From Candidatus Aenigmatarchaeota archaeon (GTDB taxonomy: Archaea > Aenigmatarchaeota > Aenigmatarchaeia > CG10238-14 > SCSR01): a stretch of DNA of 64,000 nt. The notes beneath the pieces are model-generated. The model made no database searches. It was given only the letters and a program-made list of their open reading frames with translations, and was not told the origin of the DNA. Below, piece after piece: positions 10,431-18,217 of the stretch. The translations under genes were made by a program, and so were the position numbers. The number at the start of each line of letters is the position of its first letter. Within the stretch, counting starts at the first letter, position 1. The DNA is taken from the NCBI GenBank assembly GCA_016187385.1, contig JACPJU010000001.1:8348-72347 (forward strand), written 5' to 3'.

Positions 10431-10646
10431 ATGGAAAAGTTAATTTATTCAGCCTATGAACTTGCAGATATAAAGAAGAGGCTTTTGGGAAAAGAACCTA
10501 TACCACTATGGGATGTTGTCTTCGGATTCGGTGTGGAACAGAGAGAAAATCGGACAATCAGGGAAATTCTGGACAAGTGTGGACAAAACATTGCCATAGG
10601 TCCGTTAAATGGCAAATCCGGCATTGTAATTTATTCCCTGTTATAG
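10431..10646 (+). CDS. Hypothetical protein
   Basis: 71-aa ORF, TATATTTAAA upstream. Confidence 0.45.
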   Translation: MEKLIYSAYELADIKKRLLGKEPIPLWDVVFGFGVEQRENRTIREILDKCGQNIAIGPLNGKSGIVIYSLL

Positions 10647-11903
10647 ATTGAATATCCTGTTGTTAGCCAATGGTGCTGTAGCGTCGAATCCTTGTTCATT
10701 CAACTCTCGAGCGAAATCTTCCGTGTGCTCGCCGTGGACACAGAATATCTTCTCAGGATTCACATGTTTTATGAACTCGAACAGATCGTCCCTGCTGGCA
10801 TGACTGGAGAAATTGAGTTTTTTGACATCCATGTGAACCTCAAGGTCTATGTCTTTGTTGATGTACCTGCCAGTTTCGAGTAATGTTTTCCCGGGCGTGC
10901 CTTCAACCTGAAATCCGCTCATAGTCAGGCTGCAGTTTTTCTTGTCGAACAATTTCTGGATATACCACACAATAGGTCCGCCTTGGAGCATGCCTCCTGT
11001 TGACAGAATAACGCCAGGCTGCTTGATTATTTTCTTTCTCATTTTATGGTCTGCGACATACTGGGCTTTTTCAAGCGCCTTGTCCAGGCTTTTAGGATCT
11101 TTCAGCAGGTTCTTGTGCTGGTTTATAATCGTGATTGCCTTTTTTGCCATGCCGTCCACATACAGAGGATAGTCTATCCCGTTACTATCCAATACAAGTA
11201 ATAGTTCATCAATTCTTCCGACGGCAAAACCTGAAATAAGCGCAACACCGTCCCTGGACAGGGTATCGCGAACTGTTCTGACCAATTCCTTTTCCTGCAA
11301 TTTTCTGTCAGGATGCTCACGGTCTGAATACGTGCTTTCCGTCACCATCACATCAACTTCAGGCAGTTTCAAATCAGCACCTTTAACCAATTTTGTGTCA
11401 GTGGTTTTGTAGTCTCCTGTGTAAAGAATCTTTTTACCGCCTGCGTCAAGATAAGTCAGAGCACTGCCCGGTATATGGCCTGCATCGAATAACGTGGCTT
11501 TGGTGTTGTGGACTTTGAATGGTGATCTGAAATTAACTGGAACGAAACTGTCCAATGTTGCTTCCACGTCATTTCTTGAAAATGGCAGTTCCACGCCCTC
11601 CTCGCGGCTGATCTTTATCGAATCCAGCCACAGCAATCTTGACAATGGTTTTGTCACACCTTGTGAGAATATAGGACAATTATTTTTTTTGGTGCTGAAA
11701 ATTGGAATAGCGCCGACATGATCCAAATGGGCATGCGAGATTATTATGGCGTCCACCTTTCCCTGCACTGGTATGGGAAACAATGGCGGGATTTCCTGGA
11801 CTTTTGTCCCATAATCCATCAAAATCTTTTCGCCACCTGTGTCAACCAAGACAGAAGAACAACCTATCGACGCCATTGCGCCATGGAAAGAAACTTGAAC
11901 CAT
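10641..11903 (-). CDS. Beta-CASP metallo-beta-lactamase ribonuclease (aCPSF2-like)
   Basis: SHAHLDH, AGHIPGS, YTGD, ESTY, FSSHA, VHGE; no N-terminal KH domains. Confidence 0.92.
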   Translation of the reverse strand: MVQVSFHGAMASIGCSSVLVDTGGEKILMDYGTKVQEIPPLFPIPVQGKVDAIIISHAHLDHVGAIPIFSTKKNNCPIFSQGVTKPLSRLLWLDSIKISREEGVELPFSRNDVEATLDSFVPVNFRSPFKVHNTKATLFDAGHIPGSALTYLDAGGKKILYTGDYKTTDTKLVKGADLKLPEVDVMVTESTYSDREHPDRKLQEKELVRTVRDTLSRDGVALISGFAVGRIDELLLVLDSNGIDYPLYVDGMAKKAITIINQHKNLLKDPKSLDKALEKAQYVADHKMRKKIIKQPGVILSTGGMLQGGPIVWYIQKLFDKKNCSLTMSGFQVEGTPGKTLLETGRYINKDIDLEVHMDVKKLNFSSHASRDDLFEFIKHVNPEKIFCVHGEHTEDFARELNEQGFDATAPLANNRIFNL

Positions 11904-11988
11904 TTATGAATATTTGTATCGAAGGTTAATAAACATGACTAAAATATTTATATATCGGAAATATACATTGAATATATAAGGTGTATAT

Positions 11989-12225
11989 ATGCCCAAAGCC
12001 ATGATAAACATATCAGATAGAGCAAATAGGGTGCTGAATATTATAAAAGCGAGGTATGGTTTGAAAGACAAGTCTCAAGCTATAAACAGAATGACTGAAG
12101 AATTTGGGCAGATACTTCTGGAACCACAGTTAAGACCCGATTATGTTAAAAGGTTAAGGAAAATCGAAAGTGAAGGTACAATTTCTGAAGAGGAGTTTGA
12201 GAAGAAATTTAAAGTGAAGCTATAA
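11989..12225 (+). CDS. Antitoxin (DUF2683-like)
   Basis: NRVLNIIKARYGLKDKSQAI...EPQLRPDYVKRL; overlaps the toxin start. Confidence 0.8.
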   Translation: MPKAMINISDRANRVLNIIKARYGLKDKSQAINRMTEEFGQILLEPQLRPDYVKRLRKIESEGTISEEEFEKKFKVKL

Positions 12226-12491
12226 TGTTTTCTGCTGAATTCTCCAAAGAGCTGACAAGAAAACTAGAGAAACTTCAGAAAAGAAACAAAGTCTTGTTCG
12301 ATGTTATAATAGATAAGATAAGGGGGATTAAAGAAAATCCAGAACACTACAAACCATTACGACACGACATGAAAGGTCTCAGACGGGTTCATATCATGAA
12401 ATCTTTTGTGCTTATATTCAGAATAGATTATGCTAGTAATAAAATAATTTTTGAAGATTTTGATCATCATGATGAGATATATAGAAGATAA
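12225..12491 (+). CDS. RelE/YafQ-family toxin
   Basis: YKPLRHDMKGLRRVHIMKSFVLIFRI...FDHHDEIY. Confidence 0.88.
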   Translation: MFSAEFSKELTRKLEKLQKRNKVLFDVIIDKIRGIKENPEHYKPLRHDMKGLRRVHIMKSFVLIFRIDYASNKIIFEDFDHHDEIYRR

Positions 12492-12598
12492 GCTGATGCG
12501 ATAGATAGCTTTTCCTGTCCGCATGATTTATAAACATATTATGTCATAATAAACTGAAGTGAGATGATGAGAAGCCAATACACGGTGAAAAGTGGCCA

Positions 12599-12889
12599 AT
12601 GGGTGATGGATCGCCAATTCGTAGCGATCTTTCTAGCCTGAAGAAAGTCATACTCAAATCCCTTACTAGAAATCAGATTTTGCTTCTGAATGAAATAGAG
12701 AGTAATTCTACAAAAACTATTACAGCTCTAGTCAGCACAATATCAAAGAAATCCAAGATACCTATATCCACTCTGAAATTAAATGCACGTCTCTTGAAGG
12801 ACTTGGAACTCATTAACTACTCAGTTTCTGAACCTGTTGAATTAAGCGATTCTGGTAGGCTTGTTTTAACTTTGTTGGAGAGTGGATGA
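12599..12889 (+). CDS. Winged helix-turn-helix protein
   Basis: IPISTLKLNARLLKDLELI...VELSDSGRLV; GGTGA ribosome-binding site upstream. Confidence 0.75.
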   Translation: MGDGSPIRSDLSSLKKVILKSLTRNQILLLNEIESNSTKTITALVSTISKKSKIPISTLKLNARLLKDLELINYSVSEPVELSDSGRLVLTLLESG

Positions 12890-13958
12890 CATGAGTATAC
12901 AAAATTTATCCGAATTATCTGTAGAAGAAACTGCGGATAGTCTCAGACGATTGAAAACGCTTAATGCGGAAAGATACGATTTAAAACTAGAACCGTTATC
13001 TCATCCACTTTTAGACGGGACATTTTTGAAAGAAAGAGACGCAGTTATTCCATACGGACTTGACGGATTCAATAAACAAAATGCCGTTGTATTCACAGGG
13101 CAATGTCTGCTTAAACATGATGAAGATCCGGAATGTCCTGTTACGTTAGAAGACATGTTGGAGATATTAAAACTTAGGGACTTTCTCCAAAAGACACAGC
13201 TTCCTGCGGTATGCATGATTCCAGATAGTATATACCTTGATAAGAAATTCTTAGATCCGTGGTTTGGTGGTCATACTGATTTGAAAGAAATCCGCGAAAG
13301 AGTGGAAAAATTCGCTGATCTCTACACAAATGTCAGAAGAAAATTAACACCATCTGTTAAGCATATAAGGACAAGTGAAATTGAAGAAAAATTAAATGGC
13401 GCTAGAAATAGACTAAGTTTACCTCTATTGATACCAAAAATAAGGCAGGTTTATGGCGGTAGGTTTCTAAAAAACAAAGAGCACACACATCCTCTAAGCC
13501 AAACCATACTTGAATATGGTATGGTATCATTAATTTTACGGGATAGAGCTGGTTACACTAACAGAGAACATATTATAGTCTTCTCAGAACCAGATGAAAT
13601 ATGCAGTGTCAAGGCTACTGAATTAATTCTTGCAGAAAGAGGAGATAGGCTAAGGGCAAATAATGTTAAATCAGTAGGCCTAATAGGTCAGATACCTTTA
13701 CCTCCTTTGTATTACCCACCAGATCTGGAAAAGAACCGTATGTATGGAGCACCTAGGAAATCTAGAATTCATGTGAATGAACCAGATGAAAATATTAGAG
13801 GGAAACTTTTAGAAAATCCCTCTTTCGCATTACTTGCAGTCTACATGTCGCCCGCTACTGATCAGGATGAACTTGATTACTTGAGAGTTTATGGGACGAA
13901 GGGAGATGTTGCAGACATTTTAATAGGCCAAATTAGGGACTTTAGGAGATATTTGTAG
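12882..13958 (+). CDS. Divergent class Ic (TrpRS/TyrRS-like) aminoacyl-tRNA synthetase paralogue
   Basis: Ordered matches to TrpRS elements (VVFTG, CMIPD, IIVFSEPDE, LPPL...RMYGAPRKSRIHVNEPDENIRGKL) but no HIGH or KMSKS motif. Confidence 0.55.
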   Translation: MDDMSIQNLSELSVEETADSLRRLKTLNAERYDLKLEPLSHPLLDGTFLKERDAVIPYGLDGFNKQNAVVFTGQCLLKHDEDPECPVTLEDMLEILKLRDFLQKTQLPAVCMIPDSIYLDKKFLDPWFGGHTDLKEIRERVEKFADLYTNVRRKLTPSVKHIRTSEIEEKLNGARNRLSLPLLIPKIRQVYGGRFLKNKEHTHPLSQTILEYGMVSLILRDRAGYTNREHIIVFSEPDEICSVKATELILAERGDRLRANNVKSVGLIGQIPLPPLYYPPDLEKNRMYGAPRKSRIHVNEPDENIRGKLLENPSFALLAVYMSPATDQDELDYLRVYGTKGDVADILIGQIRDFRRYL

Positions 13959-13966
13959 GTGACTCT

Positions 13967-14719
13967 ATGCAGCGAGATAAAATCATTGAAAACTTGGAAC
14001 AGCTAGCACCACCGATACTTACCGATATGGACAATATAGGATTGATTGTCGATGGTAAAAATGAGATTGAAGTTATTGGTGTTACATTAGATTTCTCTAT
14101 GAACGCGATAAAGAAGGCGATAGAAAAAAAATGCGATTTGTTAATAGTGCATCACGGGCCAGAATTTAAAGAAGATAAAGAAAATGAATACATTAAGAAA
14201 AAACTTCAACTCGCCAAAGAAAATGATCTTTCAGTATTTAGAATGCATTTGAATCTGGATTTTGTTAAAAATGGACTTATGGATAGCTTTTGCAAGCTTA
14301 TTGGTCTGAAAGGGAGACCGGAAATTGTAGTTTACAAGAATACTAAGATAAAAGGCGGTGTATACTTGGCTAAAGATAACCTTACGCTAGATGATTTGAT
14401 TGAAGGGATTAAACATCTAAACCCAAAGTCGATAAGAATAGCGGGTGTCAAAAAAGGTGTTTATAGAAAAATTGCAGTAACTACTGGTGCTGGGTTTATA
14501 CCAGAATTTCTTGACCAGTTAAAACCCGATGTTTTCATTTCTGGAGAATTAACACAAGAAGCAATAAGAACAGCTGAAGATTTAGGAATTACTTTAATCG
14601 AAGTCACACATTACTTGGAGAGCAAAGCATTGGAAATATTTTCTAATAAGCTGAAGGGGATTTTGCCATTAAAGATTGAGTTCATAGATTTAGGTGATAG
14701 TTTGGAAGTGGTGAAATGA
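13967..14719 (+). CDS. Nif3/YbgI-like dinuclear metal protein
   Basis: DNIGLIVDG, TLD, LLIVHHG, HLNLD, TTGAG, FISGE, THYLE. Confidence 0.92.
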   Translation: MQRDKIIENLEQLAPPILTDMDNIGLIVDGKNEIEVIGVTLDFSMNAIKKAIEKKCDLLIVHHGPEFKEDKENEYIKKKLQLAKENDLSVFRMHLNLDFVKNGLMDSFCKLIGLKGRPEIVVYKNTKIKGGVYLAKDNLTLDDLIEGIKHLNPKSIRIAGVKKGVYRKIAVTTGAGFIPEFLDQLKPDVFISGELTQEAIRTAEDLGITLIEVTHYLESKALEIFSNKLKGILPLKIEFIDLGDSLEVVK

Positions 14720-15144
14720 AAATTAAGATAGTTAATGGCGTTGATAATTTAGGTAAACGGCTTATTGCTATTGAAAAAGTAGCAAAAAATGAAGTTATAT
14801 GTAAACTAAAAGGAAAACTTCTAGATAAACCAACTTGGCAAACTTTACAAGTAGGTCCAAATAAACATTTAAAAAATCGCATTATTGATTATCTTAATCA
14901 CTCATGTAATCCAAACTCTTTCGTCGACACAGAAAAATTAGTCTTGGTAGCTAATAGAACTATTAAACAGCTTGATGACATAACTATAAATTATCTTTTG
15001 ACTGAATGCGAATTAGCCAGTCCATTCAAATGTATGTGCGGTAGTAGAAAATGTTTCAAGGAAATAAAAGGTTACAAATTTTTGAATTCCAATAAGAGAC
15101 TGAACATACCTTATTTATTAAAATTAAAAAGTAAACTACAATAG
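14716..15144 (+). CDS. SET-domain methyltransferase with post-SET
   Basis: YLNHSCNPN, DITINY, FKCMCGSRKC. Confidence 0.92.
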   Translation: MKIKIVNGVDNLGKRLIAIEKVAKNEVICKLKGKLLDKPTWQTLQVGPNKHLKNRIIDYLNHSCNPNSFVDTEKLVLVANRTIKQLDDITINYLLTECELASPFKCMCGSRKCFKEIKGYKFLNSNKRLNIPYLLKLKSKLQ

Positions 15145-15152
15145 AGGTTAAG

Positions 15153-16244
15153 ATGGACCTAGAAACACGATTAGAGCTTGTAAAGGGTGTCGGAGAGGAA
15201 ATAATAACCGAAGATGAACTAATAGAACTTTTAGGAACTAAATTACATCCGATTGCTTATGATGGTTTCGAGCCTAGTGGGCTAGCACATCTTCCGTTTG
15301 GTGTTTTCCGTCCTTTGTTACTGAAAGACTTGTCCAAAGCAGGCGTTCGTTTCAAGCTATGGCTAGCGGATTCTTTCGCATGGATAAACAACAAGATGGG
15401 CGGGGACACAAACAAAATAAGAAAAGTGGGCGAATACTTTATCGAGGTTTGGAAGGCTGCAGGCGTTAAAGAAGGGAGAGACGTCCAGTTTCTTTGGGCT
15501 TCCGATGCATTCTCCGACAAGGAATACTGGAAGAAAGTTATCCTGATTGCAAAGAACACTACAGTGAGCAGAGCCAACAGGGCATTGACAATAATGGGAA
15601 GGAAAGAAGGCGAAATGCAGGAAGTAGCGCAGTATTTCTACCCCATGATGCAGGCTGCCGATATCTTTTATCTGGATGCAGACATATGCCAGCTGGGACT
15701 GGACCAGAGGAGAGCCAACATGCTTGCACGCGACATTGCCGAAAAAAAGAAATGGAAAAAACCAGTTGTCGTCTCTCATCATATGCTCATGGGACTGGAA
15801 GGTATAAAACAACCGGAAGGATATGAAGAAAACAAACAGATGGACATAGAGATTTCCTCAAAGATGAGCAAGTCCAAGCCGCATACCGCAATATTCGTAC
15901 ACGATTCGAAGGAGGAAATAAAGAGGAAGATAAATTCCGCATTCTGTCCCGAAAAAACTGTAGAAGGAAATCCTATATTAGATTATTCAAAACATCTGGT
16001 GTTCAGAAGATTCAAGTCGATGAAGATAGAGCGTGATAAGAAATTCGGCGGTGACTTAGAATTTGATGATTATCAGGAATTGGAGAAAATGTTCAAAGAT
16101 GGAAAACTGCATCCGATGGATTTGAAGAATTCTGTCGCGGATTATCTGGACCAGATGATAGCACCAATTAGAGAACATTTTGAGAAGAACAGGAAAGCTA
16201 AAGAGCTTTATGATTTTGTAAGAAAGCAGGAAATTACACGATAA
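15153..16244 (+). CDS. tyrS: Tyrosine--tRNA ligase
   Basis: AYDGFEPSG, YPMMQAADI, GLDQRR, KMSKS, LHPMDLK. Confidence 0.96.
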   Translation: MDLETRLELVKGVGEEIITEDELIELLGTKLHPIAYDGFEPSGLAHLPFGVFRPLLLKDLSKAGVRFKLWLADSFAWINNKMGGDTNKIRKVGEYFIEVWKAAGVKEGRDVQFLWASDAFSDKEYWKKVILIAKNTTVSRANRALTIMGRKEGEMQEVAQYFYPMMQAADIFYLDADICQLGLDQRRANMLARDIAEKKKWKKPVVVSHHMLMGLEGIKQPEGYEENKQMDIEISSKMSKSKPHTAIFVHDSKEEIKRKINSAFCPEKTVEGNPILDYSKHLVFRRFKSMKIERDKKFGGDLEFDDYQELEKMFKDGKLHPMDLKNSVADYLDQMIAPIREHFEKNRKAKELYDFVRKQEITR

Positions 16245-16274
16245 GTTTTTATATTTAATATTCGAAATAGTGAT

Positions 16275-16604
16275 ATGGCTGTAGAGTCAGTATACATTTC
16301 GCTAGAAGGCTTGGCAGAGGCTATGAGAGGCAAAATGTCTATTCATGATTATTTTGTAGATGTAGTCGATGCCAGAAGAAATGGCTTGGGGTCTATCCAA
16401 GTCTATAAAGGAAATGAACCTCCTGTAATGGAAGTAAGATATAGATTCTCTTTAAGGGAAGAGCCGCTTTCTCATATAAGACATCCACACGTTTCGTCTT
16501 CTTCTGAATTTGATATTTGGTTTCCAGATAAGTTGGAAGAAGATAAGAAGCAATTGTTGAGAAGCGCATACAACGACGCATTAAAATCATATGAAAGCCG
16601 GTAA
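16275..16604 (+). CDS. Hypothetical protein
   Basis: 109-aa ORF. Confidence 0.55.
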   Translation: MAVESVYISLEGLAEAMRGKMSIHDYFVDVVDARRNGLGSIQVYKGNEPPVMEVRYRFSLREEPLSHIRHPHVSSSSEFDIWFPDKLEEDKKQLLRSAYNDALKSYESR

Positions 16605-16895
16605 TTATTTCGTAAATTTGTGAAAATATTTCTTGTCTACGCATCCATCAACAACTTTAATACCGTCTTTTCTAAGCATCTTGGTTTTTGTTTCCAAACC
16701 ACCTTCCCCGCTGTATCCGCACAATTTACCTGATGACGATACGACTTTGTAGCATGGGTAAACAATAGGGTAAGGATTACTTGACATGATTCTACCTATA
16801 GCCCTAGGTGATGTCTTACATAGTCTGGCTAGAGTTCCATAGGTCGCAACCTTGCCTTTTGGTATTTTCTTCAACAGCAGAAGCGCTTTGTGCAT
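16605..16895 (-). CDS. MGMT-family methylated-DNA--protein-cysteine methyltransferase (C-terminal domain only)
   Basis: IPKGKVATYG, PRAIG, NP...PCYKVV, GYSG. Confidence 0.88.
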   Translation of the reverse strand: MHKALLLLKKIPKGKVATYGTLARLCKTSPRAIGRIMSSNPYPIVYPCYKVVSSSGKLCGYSGEGGLETKTKMLRKDGIKVVDGCVDKKYFHKFTK

Positions 16896-16930
16896 ATACT
16901 ATTTTAAGTCTAATTTAGTAAATGTAGTTT

Positions 16931-18217
16931 ATGCTGGACATCAAATCAGTCAGGGAGAACCCGCTTTCAATCAAGGAGAATCTTGAAAAAAGAAAAGACC
17001 CGGCAAAAATAAAGCTTCTCGACGAACTGCTGAAGGTTGACATAGAATGGAGAAAGCTTCAGACCGAAACAAACAAACTAAGACAAAAAAGAAATCAATT
17101 GAGCGTAGAAATCGCCAAACAAAAGAAACTTGGAAAACCAGCGAAAAAGGAACTTGCCGAAGCGAAGAAGGTTGATGCTTCAATAGGGAAATCCGAGAAA
17201 AAACTGTCACAACTCGAAGCCAATGAAAAATCTCTATTGATGAACATCCCGAACATGCTTCACTGGAGCGTGCCTATTGGCAAGGATGACTCGGATAATG
17301 TCGAAGTCAGAAAATGGGGTGAACAACCGAAATTTGATTTCGAACCAAAAGACCACTTGACAATTCTTCAGAATCTTGACTTGATAGATGTTGAAAGAGG
17401 GGCCAAGATAGCGGGCGAGAGATTCTATTACATGAAAGGTGACTTGGTTCTCTTGGATATGGCACTGCAAAAATTCGCATTGGACGTCCTGAGGAAGAAA
17501 GGTTTTACAATTATTTCACCCCCGCTGATGATTAGAAGGAAACCGTACGAAGGTGTGACGGATTTAACAGATTTTGAAATGGTTACATACAAGATCGAAA
17601 ATGAGGATGCGTATCTGATAGCCACGAGCGAACATCCGATAGCTGCAATGTTTCTGGACGAAGTATTGGATGTCAAAAAACTTCCACTGATGTTTGCCGG
17701 AGTCTCTCCATGTTTCAGAAAAGAAGTCGGTACACATGGAAAGTATACAAAGGGTTTATTTAGAATGCATCACTTCAACAAAGTCGAACAATTTGTTTTC
17801 TCTCTACCTGAACAATCATGGAAGTTGCACGAAGAAATCCAAAGGAATTGCGAGCTTTTGTATCAATCGTTGGGGTTGCATTATCGTATTGTCAATGTCT
17901 GCACTGGTGATATTGGTAGCATAGCCGCGAAGAAATATGACACAGAAGTTTGGATGTCTGACGGGCAGTTTAGAGAAGTTGGTAGCAATTCTAATTGTAC
18001 AGATTATCAGGCCAGAAGACTGGGAATAAGATTCAGAGAAGGCGAAGGTAAGCCCGTGAAAGGATTTGTACACACTCTGAATAATACTGCATTAGCAACA
18101 AGCAGGGTAATGATTGCCATAATAGAACAATTCCAACAAAAGGATGGCAGCGTTGTTATTCCCAGGGTGTTGAGACCATACATGTTCGGAATCGAAAAGT
18201 TGGAAAAGAAACGATAG
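16931..18217 (+). CDS. serS: Serine--tRNA ligase
   Basis: MLDIK, YLIATSEHP, CFRKE, FRMHHFNKVEQF, SNCTDYQARR, HTLNNT. Confidence 0.97.
   Translation: MLDIKSVRENPLSIKENLEKRKDPAKIKLLDELLKVDIEWRKLQTETNKLRQKRNQLSVEIAKQKKLGKPAKKELAEAKKVDASIGKSEKKLSQLEANEKSLLMNIPNMLHWSVPIGKDDSDNVEVRKWGEQPKFDFEPKDHLTILQNLDLIDVERGAKIAGERFYYMKGDLVLLDMALQKFALDVLRKKGFTIISPPLMIRRKPYEGVTDLTDFEMVTYKIENEDAYLIATSEHPIAAMFLDEVLDVKKLPLMFAGVSPCFRKEVGTHGKYTKGLFRMHHFNKVEQFVFSLPEQSWKLHEEIQRNCELLYQSLGLHYRIVNVCTGDIGSIAAKKYDTEVWMSDGQFREVGSNSNCTDYQARRLGIRFREGEGKPVKGFVHTLNNTALATSRVMIAIIEQFQQKDGSVVIPRVLRPYMFGIEKLEKKR

What the first reader, a model, noticed from the sequence alone, without database searches (positions are those of the whole stretch)
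12599..16244. Candidate novel operon: wHTH - aaRS paralogue - Nif3 - SET methyltransferase - TyrRS
Seen: five co-directional genes with overlaps or gaps of 8 nt or less, downstream of a TA pair, with the Nif3 and SET genes visibly AT-rich. Established: SET domains are SAM-dependent methyltransferases and are uncommon in archaea; Nif3/YbgI proteins are dinuclear metal proteins of unclear function; class Ic aaRS folds gave rise to tRNA-dependent cyclodipeptide synthases. Inference: a regulated, probably acquired pathway that makes or modifies an amino-acid-derived product, or modifies a translation component, possibly using Tyr-tRNA from the coupled TyrRS.
Basis: partly seen in the sequence, partly recalled or inferred. 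Interest (0 to 1): 0.8.

Follow-up and report, generated by a model that had tools for sequence, protein, structure and literature searches.

The report
Hungry-codon frameshift gates tyrS operon activator
The first gene of this small archaeon's five-gene cluster is overlapped by a tiny leader gene carrying one tyrosine, one tryptophan and one phenylalanine codon, each behind the same four-base signal, which likely makes a starved ribosome slip back one base and so produce a predicted activator of the cluster, a way of sensing amino-acid shortage that would also answer an open question in a laboratory archaeon.

Summary
The five genes are real and coupled, but the evidence is against a dedicated biosynthetic pathway. 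They look like an amino-acid-starvation operon. The wHTH resembles Tar (TK0271), and a Tar-type palindrome precedes the TATA box. An unannotated 24-codon leader (12567-12641) overlaps it, with C-CAA placed before Tyr, Trp and Phe codons. The wHTH lies in the -1 frame. Across 69 Tar-like loci, 60 carry such a site and 28 lack any ordinary start codon. The codon matches the downstream synthetase in 26 of 36 (Pro before proS, 10 of 10), and activators avoid the residue they sense. Published T. kodakarensis primers show two such sites at the TK0271 start. I infer a hungry-codon -1 frameshift gate (about 0.7); it has not been observed. Genes between activator and tyrS are exchangeable. The 358-aa protein has a TrpRS fold (Z 23), without HIGH, with an invariant Cys. 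Its six other loci pair it with a DUF3335 peptidase, not Nif3 or SET. My searches found no paper on the gate; this scan noted it earlier on other genomes.

The parts
12502..12521 (+). Tar-type palindrome (TAGATA-N8-TGTCCG), predicted activator site
   Evidence: 9 of 12 matches to the published TGGACA-N8-TGTCCA (PMC6737238); top genome-wide hit of a matrix built without this locus
12527..12534 (+). TATA-like box TTTATAAA, 5 nt after the palindrome
   Evidence: sequence; a similar box follows the palindrome in the 43 of 68 loci selected for the matrix
12564..12641 (+). Leader ORF (ATG at 12564 or 12567, after SD-like GTGAG at 12559-12563), 24-25 codons, 0 frame
   Evidence: conserved in G100, G105, G107, G108 and L009
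12573..12581 (+). Predicted shift site 1, AGC-CAA-TAC (Tyr)
12594..12602 (+). Predicted shift site 2, GGC-CAA-TGG (Trp); the annotated ATG at 12599 overlaps this Trp codon
12612..12620 (+). Predicted shift site 3, CGC-CAA-TTC (Phe)
12599..12889 (+). Tar (TK0271)-like wHTH activator, in the -1 frame of the leader; conserved body from 12638; predicted trans-frame product 107 aa
   Evidence: NF053753 71.7 bits, below its cut-off of 130; frame open for 25 codons above the body; body has 1 Tyr, 0 Trp, 0 Phe
12882..13958 (+). TrpRS/TyrRS-fold paralogue lacking HIGH; invariant G73-x-C75, D115, E239, M287
13967..14719 (+). Nif3/DUF34 dinuclear metal protein, exchangeable cargo
14716..15144 (+). Stand-alone SET-domain protein, AT-rich, exchangeable cargo
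15153..16244 (+). tyrS, the only close TyrRS match in the assembly; conserved end of the operon
11989..12491 (+). Type II toxin-antitoxin pair upstream of the promoter; not part of the cassette
   Evidence: absent before the same leader in G107, toxin tail present in G105 with different cargo

Best explanation
A 24-codon leader overlaps the Tar-like wHTH gene one base out of frame and carries C-CAA directly before a Tyr, a Trp and a Phe codon; when any of these charged tRNAs is short the paused ribosome likely slips back one base (P-site CAA to CCA) and makes the wHTH, which is predicted to bind the palindrome before its own TATA box and activate the operon ending in tyrS. With plenty of amino acids, ribosomes would stop at 12641 and make no activator. 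The genes between activator and tyrS are lineage-specific cargo. The 358-aa protein is shown to have a TrpRS fold with its anticodon domain but no HIGH motif. My best guess (about 0.3) is an ATP-independent enzyme that takes aminoacyl groups from charged tRNA onto Cys75, to edit or transfer mischarged aromatic or D-amino acids during shortage. The roles of Nif3 and SET are not resolved.
For: Shown: leader, three sites, -1 frame open across all three. 60 of 69 scored Tar-like loci have C|C[AG][AG]|X in the 0 frame; 74 of 83 X are Tyr, Phe, Trp or Pro. The base before C[AG][AG] is C in 74 of 76 cases when the next codon is Y/F/W/P, versus 9 of 52 otherwise. CCAA precedes 53 of 135 aromatic codons in leaders versus 0.23% of 18,405 in the genome's genes. 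28 of 69 loci have no ATG/GTG/TTG in the activator frame. The codon matches the downstream synthetase in 26 of 36 (shuffled mean 10.5, max 21 of 100,000): proS 10 of 10, pheS 3 of 3, serS 1 of 1; Pro sites in 0 of 26 non-proS loci. Activator bodies lack the sensed residue: Pro absent in 11 of 13 Pro sensors versus 2 of 44 others; Tyr 23 of 30 versus 5 of 27; Phe 9 of 19 versus 2 of 38. In 9 loci the -1 frame opens only 1 codon above the site. Tar is a proven activator binding this palindrome type; its start primers carry CGC-CAA-TGG and CGC-CAA-TA in the same frame relation. One-tRNA P-site -1 slippage at hungry codons is established (PMC8211752, passage).
Against: No frameshift product, ribosome profile or RNA was observed. 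This locus has an in-frame ATG at 12599, and the TK0271 protein expressed from the equivalent ATG is active. CAA-to-CCA re-pairing carries a middle mismatch. PMC5009743 (passage) says slow A-site codons matter more for +1 than for -1 shifts. 10 of 36 synthetase loci miss the strict rule: 8 tyrS loci (7 with GAC-TAC, 1 with CTC-TAC) fit only a looser rule made after seeing them, and 2 trpS loci use another design. Loci are kin and the 86-column tree is poorly resolved, so p-values overstate. The Trp-avoidance test is weak (10 of 10 versus 35 of 47). The third frame is also open in 30 of 57 loci, so openness alone says little. The motif also occurs in the third frame in 32 of 69 loci, against 58 in the 0 frame. 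The wHTH scores below the Tar cut-off. The catalytic role of Cys75 rests on recalled CDPS geometry.
Confidence: 0.7

Rival explanations
1. Same sensing, but by re-initiation: a ribosome stalled at the hungry codon is released and restarts at the AUA, AUG or AUU that overlaps it in the -1 frame, or at the start-like codon overlapping the leader stop.
For: CAA plus a U-starting codon always creates an overlapping AUN; the annotated ATGs here and in TK0271 are such codons. The leader stop overlaps the first conserved codon in most loci.
Against: Pro sensors give ACC, not a start codon. The overlap codon is often TTA or CTA. The C one base before CAA is kept in 74 of 76 cases, which re-pairing needs and re-initiation does not.
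Confidence: 0.15
2. The activator is made constitutively from ATG 12599 and regulated by a metabolite (erythrose 4-phosphate, as proposed for Tar); the leader is incidental.
For: In-frame ATG; E4P releases Tar from DNA at about 5 mM in vitro (PMC6737238).
Against: 28 of 69 relatives have no start codon, and the leader codon tracks the cargo synthetase. The authors note that DAHP synthase of P. furiosus is not feedback-inhibited and leave open how any one of three amino acids is sensed.
Confidence: 0.07
3. One reading: orphan, Nif3 and SET form an acquired pathway making a methylated amino-acid-derived product from Tyr-tRNA, CDPS-like.
For: Class Ic fold without HIGH and a G-x-C at the end of strand 1; AT-rich SET; orphan plus Nif3 probably together on two more contigs.
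Against: The partner is DUF3335 in 6 of 6 other orphan loci; the anticodon domain is kept; CDPS Z is at most 10.4. Other cargo in this slot supplies amino acids (prephenate dehydrogenase, Phe hydroxylase, racemase, proC, ornithine cyclodeaminase), and spending aromatic aa-tRNA under shortage would be counter-productive (inference).
Confidence: 0.08
4. For the orphan only: a catalytically dead tRNA-binding subunit that senses uncharged tRNA, or heterodimerises with TyrRS or TrpRS and lends its anticodon domain so that another aromatic tRNA is charged.
For: ATP motifs lost and anticodon domain kept; a distant member sits alone between activator and tyrS (L037, 25% identity); inactive TyrRS halves are known in trypanosomes (PMC9437257, passage).
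Against: Invariant Cys75, Asp115 and Glu239 suggest chemistry; only 8-14% identity to solved TrpRS and TyrRS among the top rows.
Confidence: 0.3

Closest known systems
Tar (TK0271) of Thermococcus kodakarensis (PMC6737238)
   Same: Small regulator heading its own operon, palindrome upstream of the TATA box, aromatic amino acid context; published primers show the same C-CAA-codon sites at its start.
   Different: Below the NCBIfam cut-off; heads a tyrS operon, not aro; relatives are tuned to Pro, Phe or Ser. The paper describes no leader or frameshift in the parts I read.
Sensor-type frameshifts: bacterial prfB and antizyme (PMC5009743, passages; prfB site recalled)
   Same: Short zero-frame ORF fused by a regulated shift to the functional new-frame product.
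   Different: Those are +1 and sense release factor or polyamines; this would be -1, sense aminoacyl-tRNA, use three sites as an OR gate, and yield a transcription activator.
Hungry-codon -1 frameshifting (Gallant) and archaeal fucA1 -1 PRF (PMC8211752, passages)
   Same: P-site one-tRNA slippage at an empty A site; -1 direction.
   Different: Hungry shifts are described as starvation effects, not a conserved regulatory device; the passages give fucA1 as the one archaeal -1 case and mention no amino-acid sensing.
Archaeal/eukaryal TrpRS and TyrRS; cyclodipeptide synthases (AlbC)
   Same: Rossmann core; the orphan also has the TrpRS N-terminal helix and C-terminal domain.
   Different: HIGH replaced by T-L-E-D and KMSKS by R-M-Y-G-A (placement read from the model's secondary structure); unlike AlbC it keeps the tRNA-binding domain and has Cys where Ser37 is recalled to lie.

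Membership tests
Tar / TK0271 family | Score over NF053753 cut-off (130 bits) | tested here: not met
   71.7 bits, E 4e-20; 0 of 371 genomes over the cut-off
Tar / TK0271 family | TGGACA-N8-TGTCCA-type site upstream of BRE/TATA of its own operon | tested here: met
   9 of 12 matches, top matrix hit in the genome
Tar / TK0271 family | Lies in an aro operon | tested here: not met
   operon ends in tyrS
Tar / TK0271 family | Binds the site and activates transcription | not testable with these tools
   needs EMSA and in vitro transcription
Regulatory programmed -1 frameshift | Upstream 0-frame ORF overlapping an open -1 frame with a conserved shift site | tested here: met
Regulatory programmed -1 frameshift | Canonical slippery heptamer plus 3' stimulator | tested here: not met
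   no heptamer in the leader; leader fold z -0.61; not required for one-tRNA hungry slippage
Regulatory programmed -1 frameshift | Trans-frame product, responsive to the signal | not testable with these tools
   needs a reporter, proteomics or ribosome profiling
Active class Ic aaRS (orphan) | TrpRS/TyrRS fold with anticodon domain | tested here: met
   Z 23.3, residues 15-358 aligned
Active class Ic aaRS (orphan) | HIGH and KMSKS motifs; PF00579 match | tested here: not met
   no PF00579 hit; T88-L-E-D91 and R-M287-Y conserved instead
Cyclodipeptide synthase (orphan) | Lacks the C-terminal tRNA-binding domain (PMC9437257) | tested here: not met
   domain present; CDPS rows mostly align only up to about residue 275
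Cyclodipeptide synthase (orphan) | Catalytic Ser (AlbC Ser37, PMC5370406) | tested here: inconclusive
   invariant G73-x-C75 after strand 1; equivalence inferred from recalled geometry, no residue-level superposition obtained
Conserved orphan-Nif3-SET-tyrS system | Co-occurrence in other genomes | tested here: not met
   0 of 6 other orphan loci, 0 of 14 SET loci, 0 of 14 Nif3 loci; only indirect orphan+Nif3 evidence in two close relatives

The most novel reading that the evidence does not exclude
Archaea have a modular amino-acid-starvation switch: a programmed -1 frameshift at C-CAA plus a hungry codon gates synthesis of a self-activating Tar-family regulator. It is retuned by swapping one codon (Tyr, Trp, Phe, Pro, Ser) and here stacked three times as an OR gate. 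The same device explains how T. kodakarensis Tar responds to lack of any one aromatic amino acid. The co-induced TrpRS-fold protein is a new Cys-dependent aminoacyl-tRNA editing or transfer enzyme.
Probability: 0.6. Interest if true: 0.9.

Novelty: new variant of a known kind. Interest (0 to 1): 0.8.

Why it matters
A 2021 review lists a single demonstrated -1 frameshift in Archaea (PMC8211752). [quoted passage not shown] The leader offers a concrete answer that can be tested with a few point mutations in a genetically tractable, harmless archaeon. It would make hungry-codon slippage a designed sensor rather than a starvation error, and show that reduced DPANN archaea gauge tRNA charging. It also means many Tar-like genes are mis-annotated or missed. 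The operon slot also points to two uncharacterised class Ic synthetase paralogue families.

Tried and rejected
Sequence searches of the orphan against Pfam, NCBIfam and PDB found nothing meaningful. Profile comparison with TyrRS gave probability 0.6% and with the second orphan family 1.5%; only the fold search was informative. RiPP precursor reading of the leaders (suggested by the DUF3335/C39-like neighbour): rejected because the leader's amino acids vary while nucleotide context and frame are kept, and the leader occurs with unrelated cargo. A conserved Pro-Ile protein motif as the cause of CCAAT: rejected because many loci have no start for it and the next codon tracks cargo. Transcriptional slippage: no homopolymer run. 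RNA structure in this leader: z -0.61. Sigma-70 and terminator scan: at chance level (17 versus 15.9; 3 versus 2.7), not suited to archaea. An internal tyrS promoter in the AT-rich SET 3' end is neither shown nor excluded. Pattern search for further such leaders in this genome: 5 matches, only this one in front of a matching frame. No RNA holder listed. tRNA scan found only 14 genes, so tRNA-Gln could not be inspected. The tree could not count independent codon switches. No structure of the second orphan family and no complex prediction were available, so its fold and any orphan-TyrRS binding remain open. Literature searches that found no description of the gate or the orphan; the library lacks most subscription papers and bioRxiv supplements were closed.
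Full report
Observation. The five ORFs, their order and their spacing are as described. Nif3, SET and TyrRS are confirmed by Pfam and NCBIfam. The first ORF matches the TK0271 (Tar) model at 71.7 bits, under its cut-off of 130, and the 358-aa ORF matches nothing. The genome has 876 kb; a related locus in the same class is titled Candidatus Aenigmatarchaeota. SET is very AT-rich, Nif3 mildly so.

The orphan. It has 13 hits in one library and 14 in another, overlapping and including itself in the first. A model from 24 sequences (pLDDT 90.8) matches Aeropyrum TrpRS at Z 23.3, rmsd 3.3 over 302 residues, TyrRS at Z 20.3 and the best CDPS at Z 10.4. It keeps the C-terminal domain, which AlbC lacks (PMC9437257, passage). 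Reading the secondary structure, T88-L-E-D91 stands where HIGH should be and R-M287-Y-G-A where KMSKS should be. G73, C75, D91, D115, Y191, E239, M287 and K308 are invariant in 13 diverse members. So it probably cannot adenylate. Cys75 lies after strand 1, where I recall the CDPS serine to lie (AlbC Ser37 accepts the aminoacyl group; PMC5370406, passage); that equivalence is inferred.

The cluster is not a conserved pathway. The orphan's alignment hit 4 of 371 genomes of the phylum including this one; collection scans gave six distinct other loci. All six have a DUF3335 peptidase gene next or next but one, and none has Nif3 or SET (Pfam on 4 of the 6). Five have a wHTH upstream. Two continue to tyrS, one faces trpS, one contig ends, and two show no synthetase. 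A seventh, distant member (25% identity) sits between a Tar-like gene and tyrS. SET matches 59 and Nif3 16 of 371 genomes; none of the 14 other SET loci or 14 other Nif3 loci fetched (about 1.5 kb flanks) holds another cluster gene. Close homologues of wHTH, orphan and Nif3 share longest-contig lengths of 5257 and 11850, indirect evidence of linkage in two near relatives.

The leader. An ORF at 12564/12567-12641 overlaps the wHTH start. It has AGC-CAA-TAC, GGC-CAA-TGG and CGC-CAA-TTC, and one further Phe codon without the signal. The wHTH is in its -1 frame, open across all three sites. The Tar model matches 94 of 371 genomes at 122 places. I took 70 of the best 72, leaving out one at a contig edge and this genome's second copy, which has an ordinary ATG and no such leader; one more was dropped for lack of upstream DNA. 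Of 69, 60 have C|C[AG][AG]|X in the 0 frame; the 83 sites give Tyr 32, Phe 19, Pro 13, Trp 10 and 9 others; 28 have no ATG, GTG or TTG in the activator frame and 45 no ATG. The same motif within 75 nt occurs in 58 loci in the 0 frame, 12 in the activator frame, 32 in the third frame and 10 inside the gene body. The base before C[AG][AG] is C in 74 of 76 cases when Y/F/W/P follows and 9 of 52 otherwise.

The codon predicts the cargo. I scanned 150 of 158 downstream ORFs, capped at 330 aa; the first 30 loci reach only 1.5 kb downstream. 36 loci show a synthetase. The site codon matches it in 26 (shuffled mean 10.5, maximum 21 in 100,000): proS 10 of 10, pheS 3 of 3, serS 1 of 1, tyrS 12 of 20, trpS 0 of 2. 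Pro loci also carry proC or ornithine cyclodeaminase; aromatic loci carry prephenate dehydratase-like and dehydrogenase genes, Phe hydroxylase, aminotransferases and racemases. The eight tyrS misses have GAC-TAC or CTC-TAC; a looser rule fits 34 of 36 but was made afterwards. Independently, activator bodies lack the residue they sense: Pro 11 of 13 versus 2 of 44, Tyr 23 of 30 versus 5 of 27, Phe 9 of 19 versus 2 of 38, Trp 10 of 10 versus 35 of 47. These loci are kin. The tree places Pro sensors in about six separate groups but is poorly resolved, so I give no weight to the p-values.

Promoter. A palindrome at 12502-12521 matches 9 of 12 positions of the published Tar site and lies 5 nt before TTTATAAA. 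Across 68 loci the mean best match was 8.3 versus 7.2 in shuffles, a modest excess. A matrix from selected loci, leaving this one out, ranks this site first in the genome and the site before the second Tar-like gene second.

Link to T. kodakarensis. I read parts 1-4 of 7 of PMC6737238 and its Table S3, plus one row each of Tables S1 and S2. [quoted passage not shown] Their primers show the annotated ATG inside CGC-CAA-TGG, an SD-like GGTG and an ATG three codons before that CAA, and CGC-CAA-TA a few codons later. That is the layout of this window. I could not see the base after TA or any third site.

Mechanism. Shown: sequence layout, conservation, codon-cargo match, residue avoidance, fold. 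Inferred: pausing at the hungry codon, one-tRNA P-site slippage from CAA to CCA (a known mode; PMC8211752, passage), synthesis of a 107-aa activator, auto-activation, and induction of the cargo and tyrS. Re-initiation at the overlapping AUN is the main rival; Pro sensors (ACC) and the conserved upstream C argue against it. Against my reading: nothing was observed at RNA or protein level, this locus has a usable in-frame ATG, the re-pairing has a mismatch, and a review says slow A-site codons matter more for +1 shifts (PMC5009743, passages). For the orphan I favour Cys-dependent editing or transfer on aminoacyl-tRNA (about 0.3), level with a dead tRNA-binding subunit; Nif3 and SET remain unexplained passengers.

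Novelty. Searches (listings and abstract starts; passages of PMC5009743, PMC8211752, PMC9437257, PMC10318531 and PMC5370406) found no description of the gate or the orphan. I had noted this reading before looking at the scan's notes. Two earlier notes describe the same Tar-family gate on other genomes; they are not independent proof. Sensor frameshifts are a known kind, so I class this as a new variant. What this locus adds is the three-codon OR gate, the residue-avoidance test and the orphan family.

Noticed in passing
L111-L123, L078, L080, L005, L006, L010 (upstream of Tar-like wHTH): A second design: the wHTH has its own ATG and is preceded by a separate leader ending in aromatic codons. 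12 of 13 further family-f39 loci have Trp in the last four codons (one truncated); most lead to trpS-like genes, some with TrpB2. In L005, L006 and L010 a stem pairs the leader's stop region with the wHTH start (z only about -1). Looks like translational attenuation.
   Followed up: partly
L127 and L130: A third design: a leader with GTT-TGG (Val-Trp) whose wHTH lies in the +1 frame; L130 leads to a trpS-like gene (read by eye).
   Followed up: no
L044:1387-2202 and 11 others (alignment A3): A second orphan family (about 270 aa), usually beside an amino-acid racemase or aminotransferase, in the same operon slot; profile match to TyrRS 73.7%, E 3e-5; unrelated by profile to the window's orphan.
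   Followed up: partly
L006:9911-11026: tyrS is interrupted at the HIGH motif by a short insert with an in-frame stop and an 8-bp hairpin; candidate small intron in a protein-coding gene.
   Followed up: no
L008:7326-7907: DUF3335 gene with an in-frame TGA at a conserved Gly; this locus keeps an aromatic-tailed leader but has no wHTH.
   Followed up: no
G000:C2:166563-166990 (outside the window); L056, L059, L073: Second Tar-like gene with an ordinary ATG start and a Tar-type box but no leader; a separate clade in this genus with no synthetase seen.
   Followed up: partly
L062, L076, L053, L061: An extra upstream mini-ORF with its own C-CAA/C-CGG-type site precedes the leader in some Phe-sensing loci, suggesting two-tier gating (read by eye).
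   Followed up: no
window 15153-16244: This TyrRS has H-L-P-F in place of the usual HIGH tetrapeptide, shared by several relatives.
   Followed up: no
window 10641-18217: The order beta-CASP (-), cassette, tyrS, methylguanine-methyltransferase-like (-), serS recurs in L006 and L010 from other lineages.
   Followed up: partly
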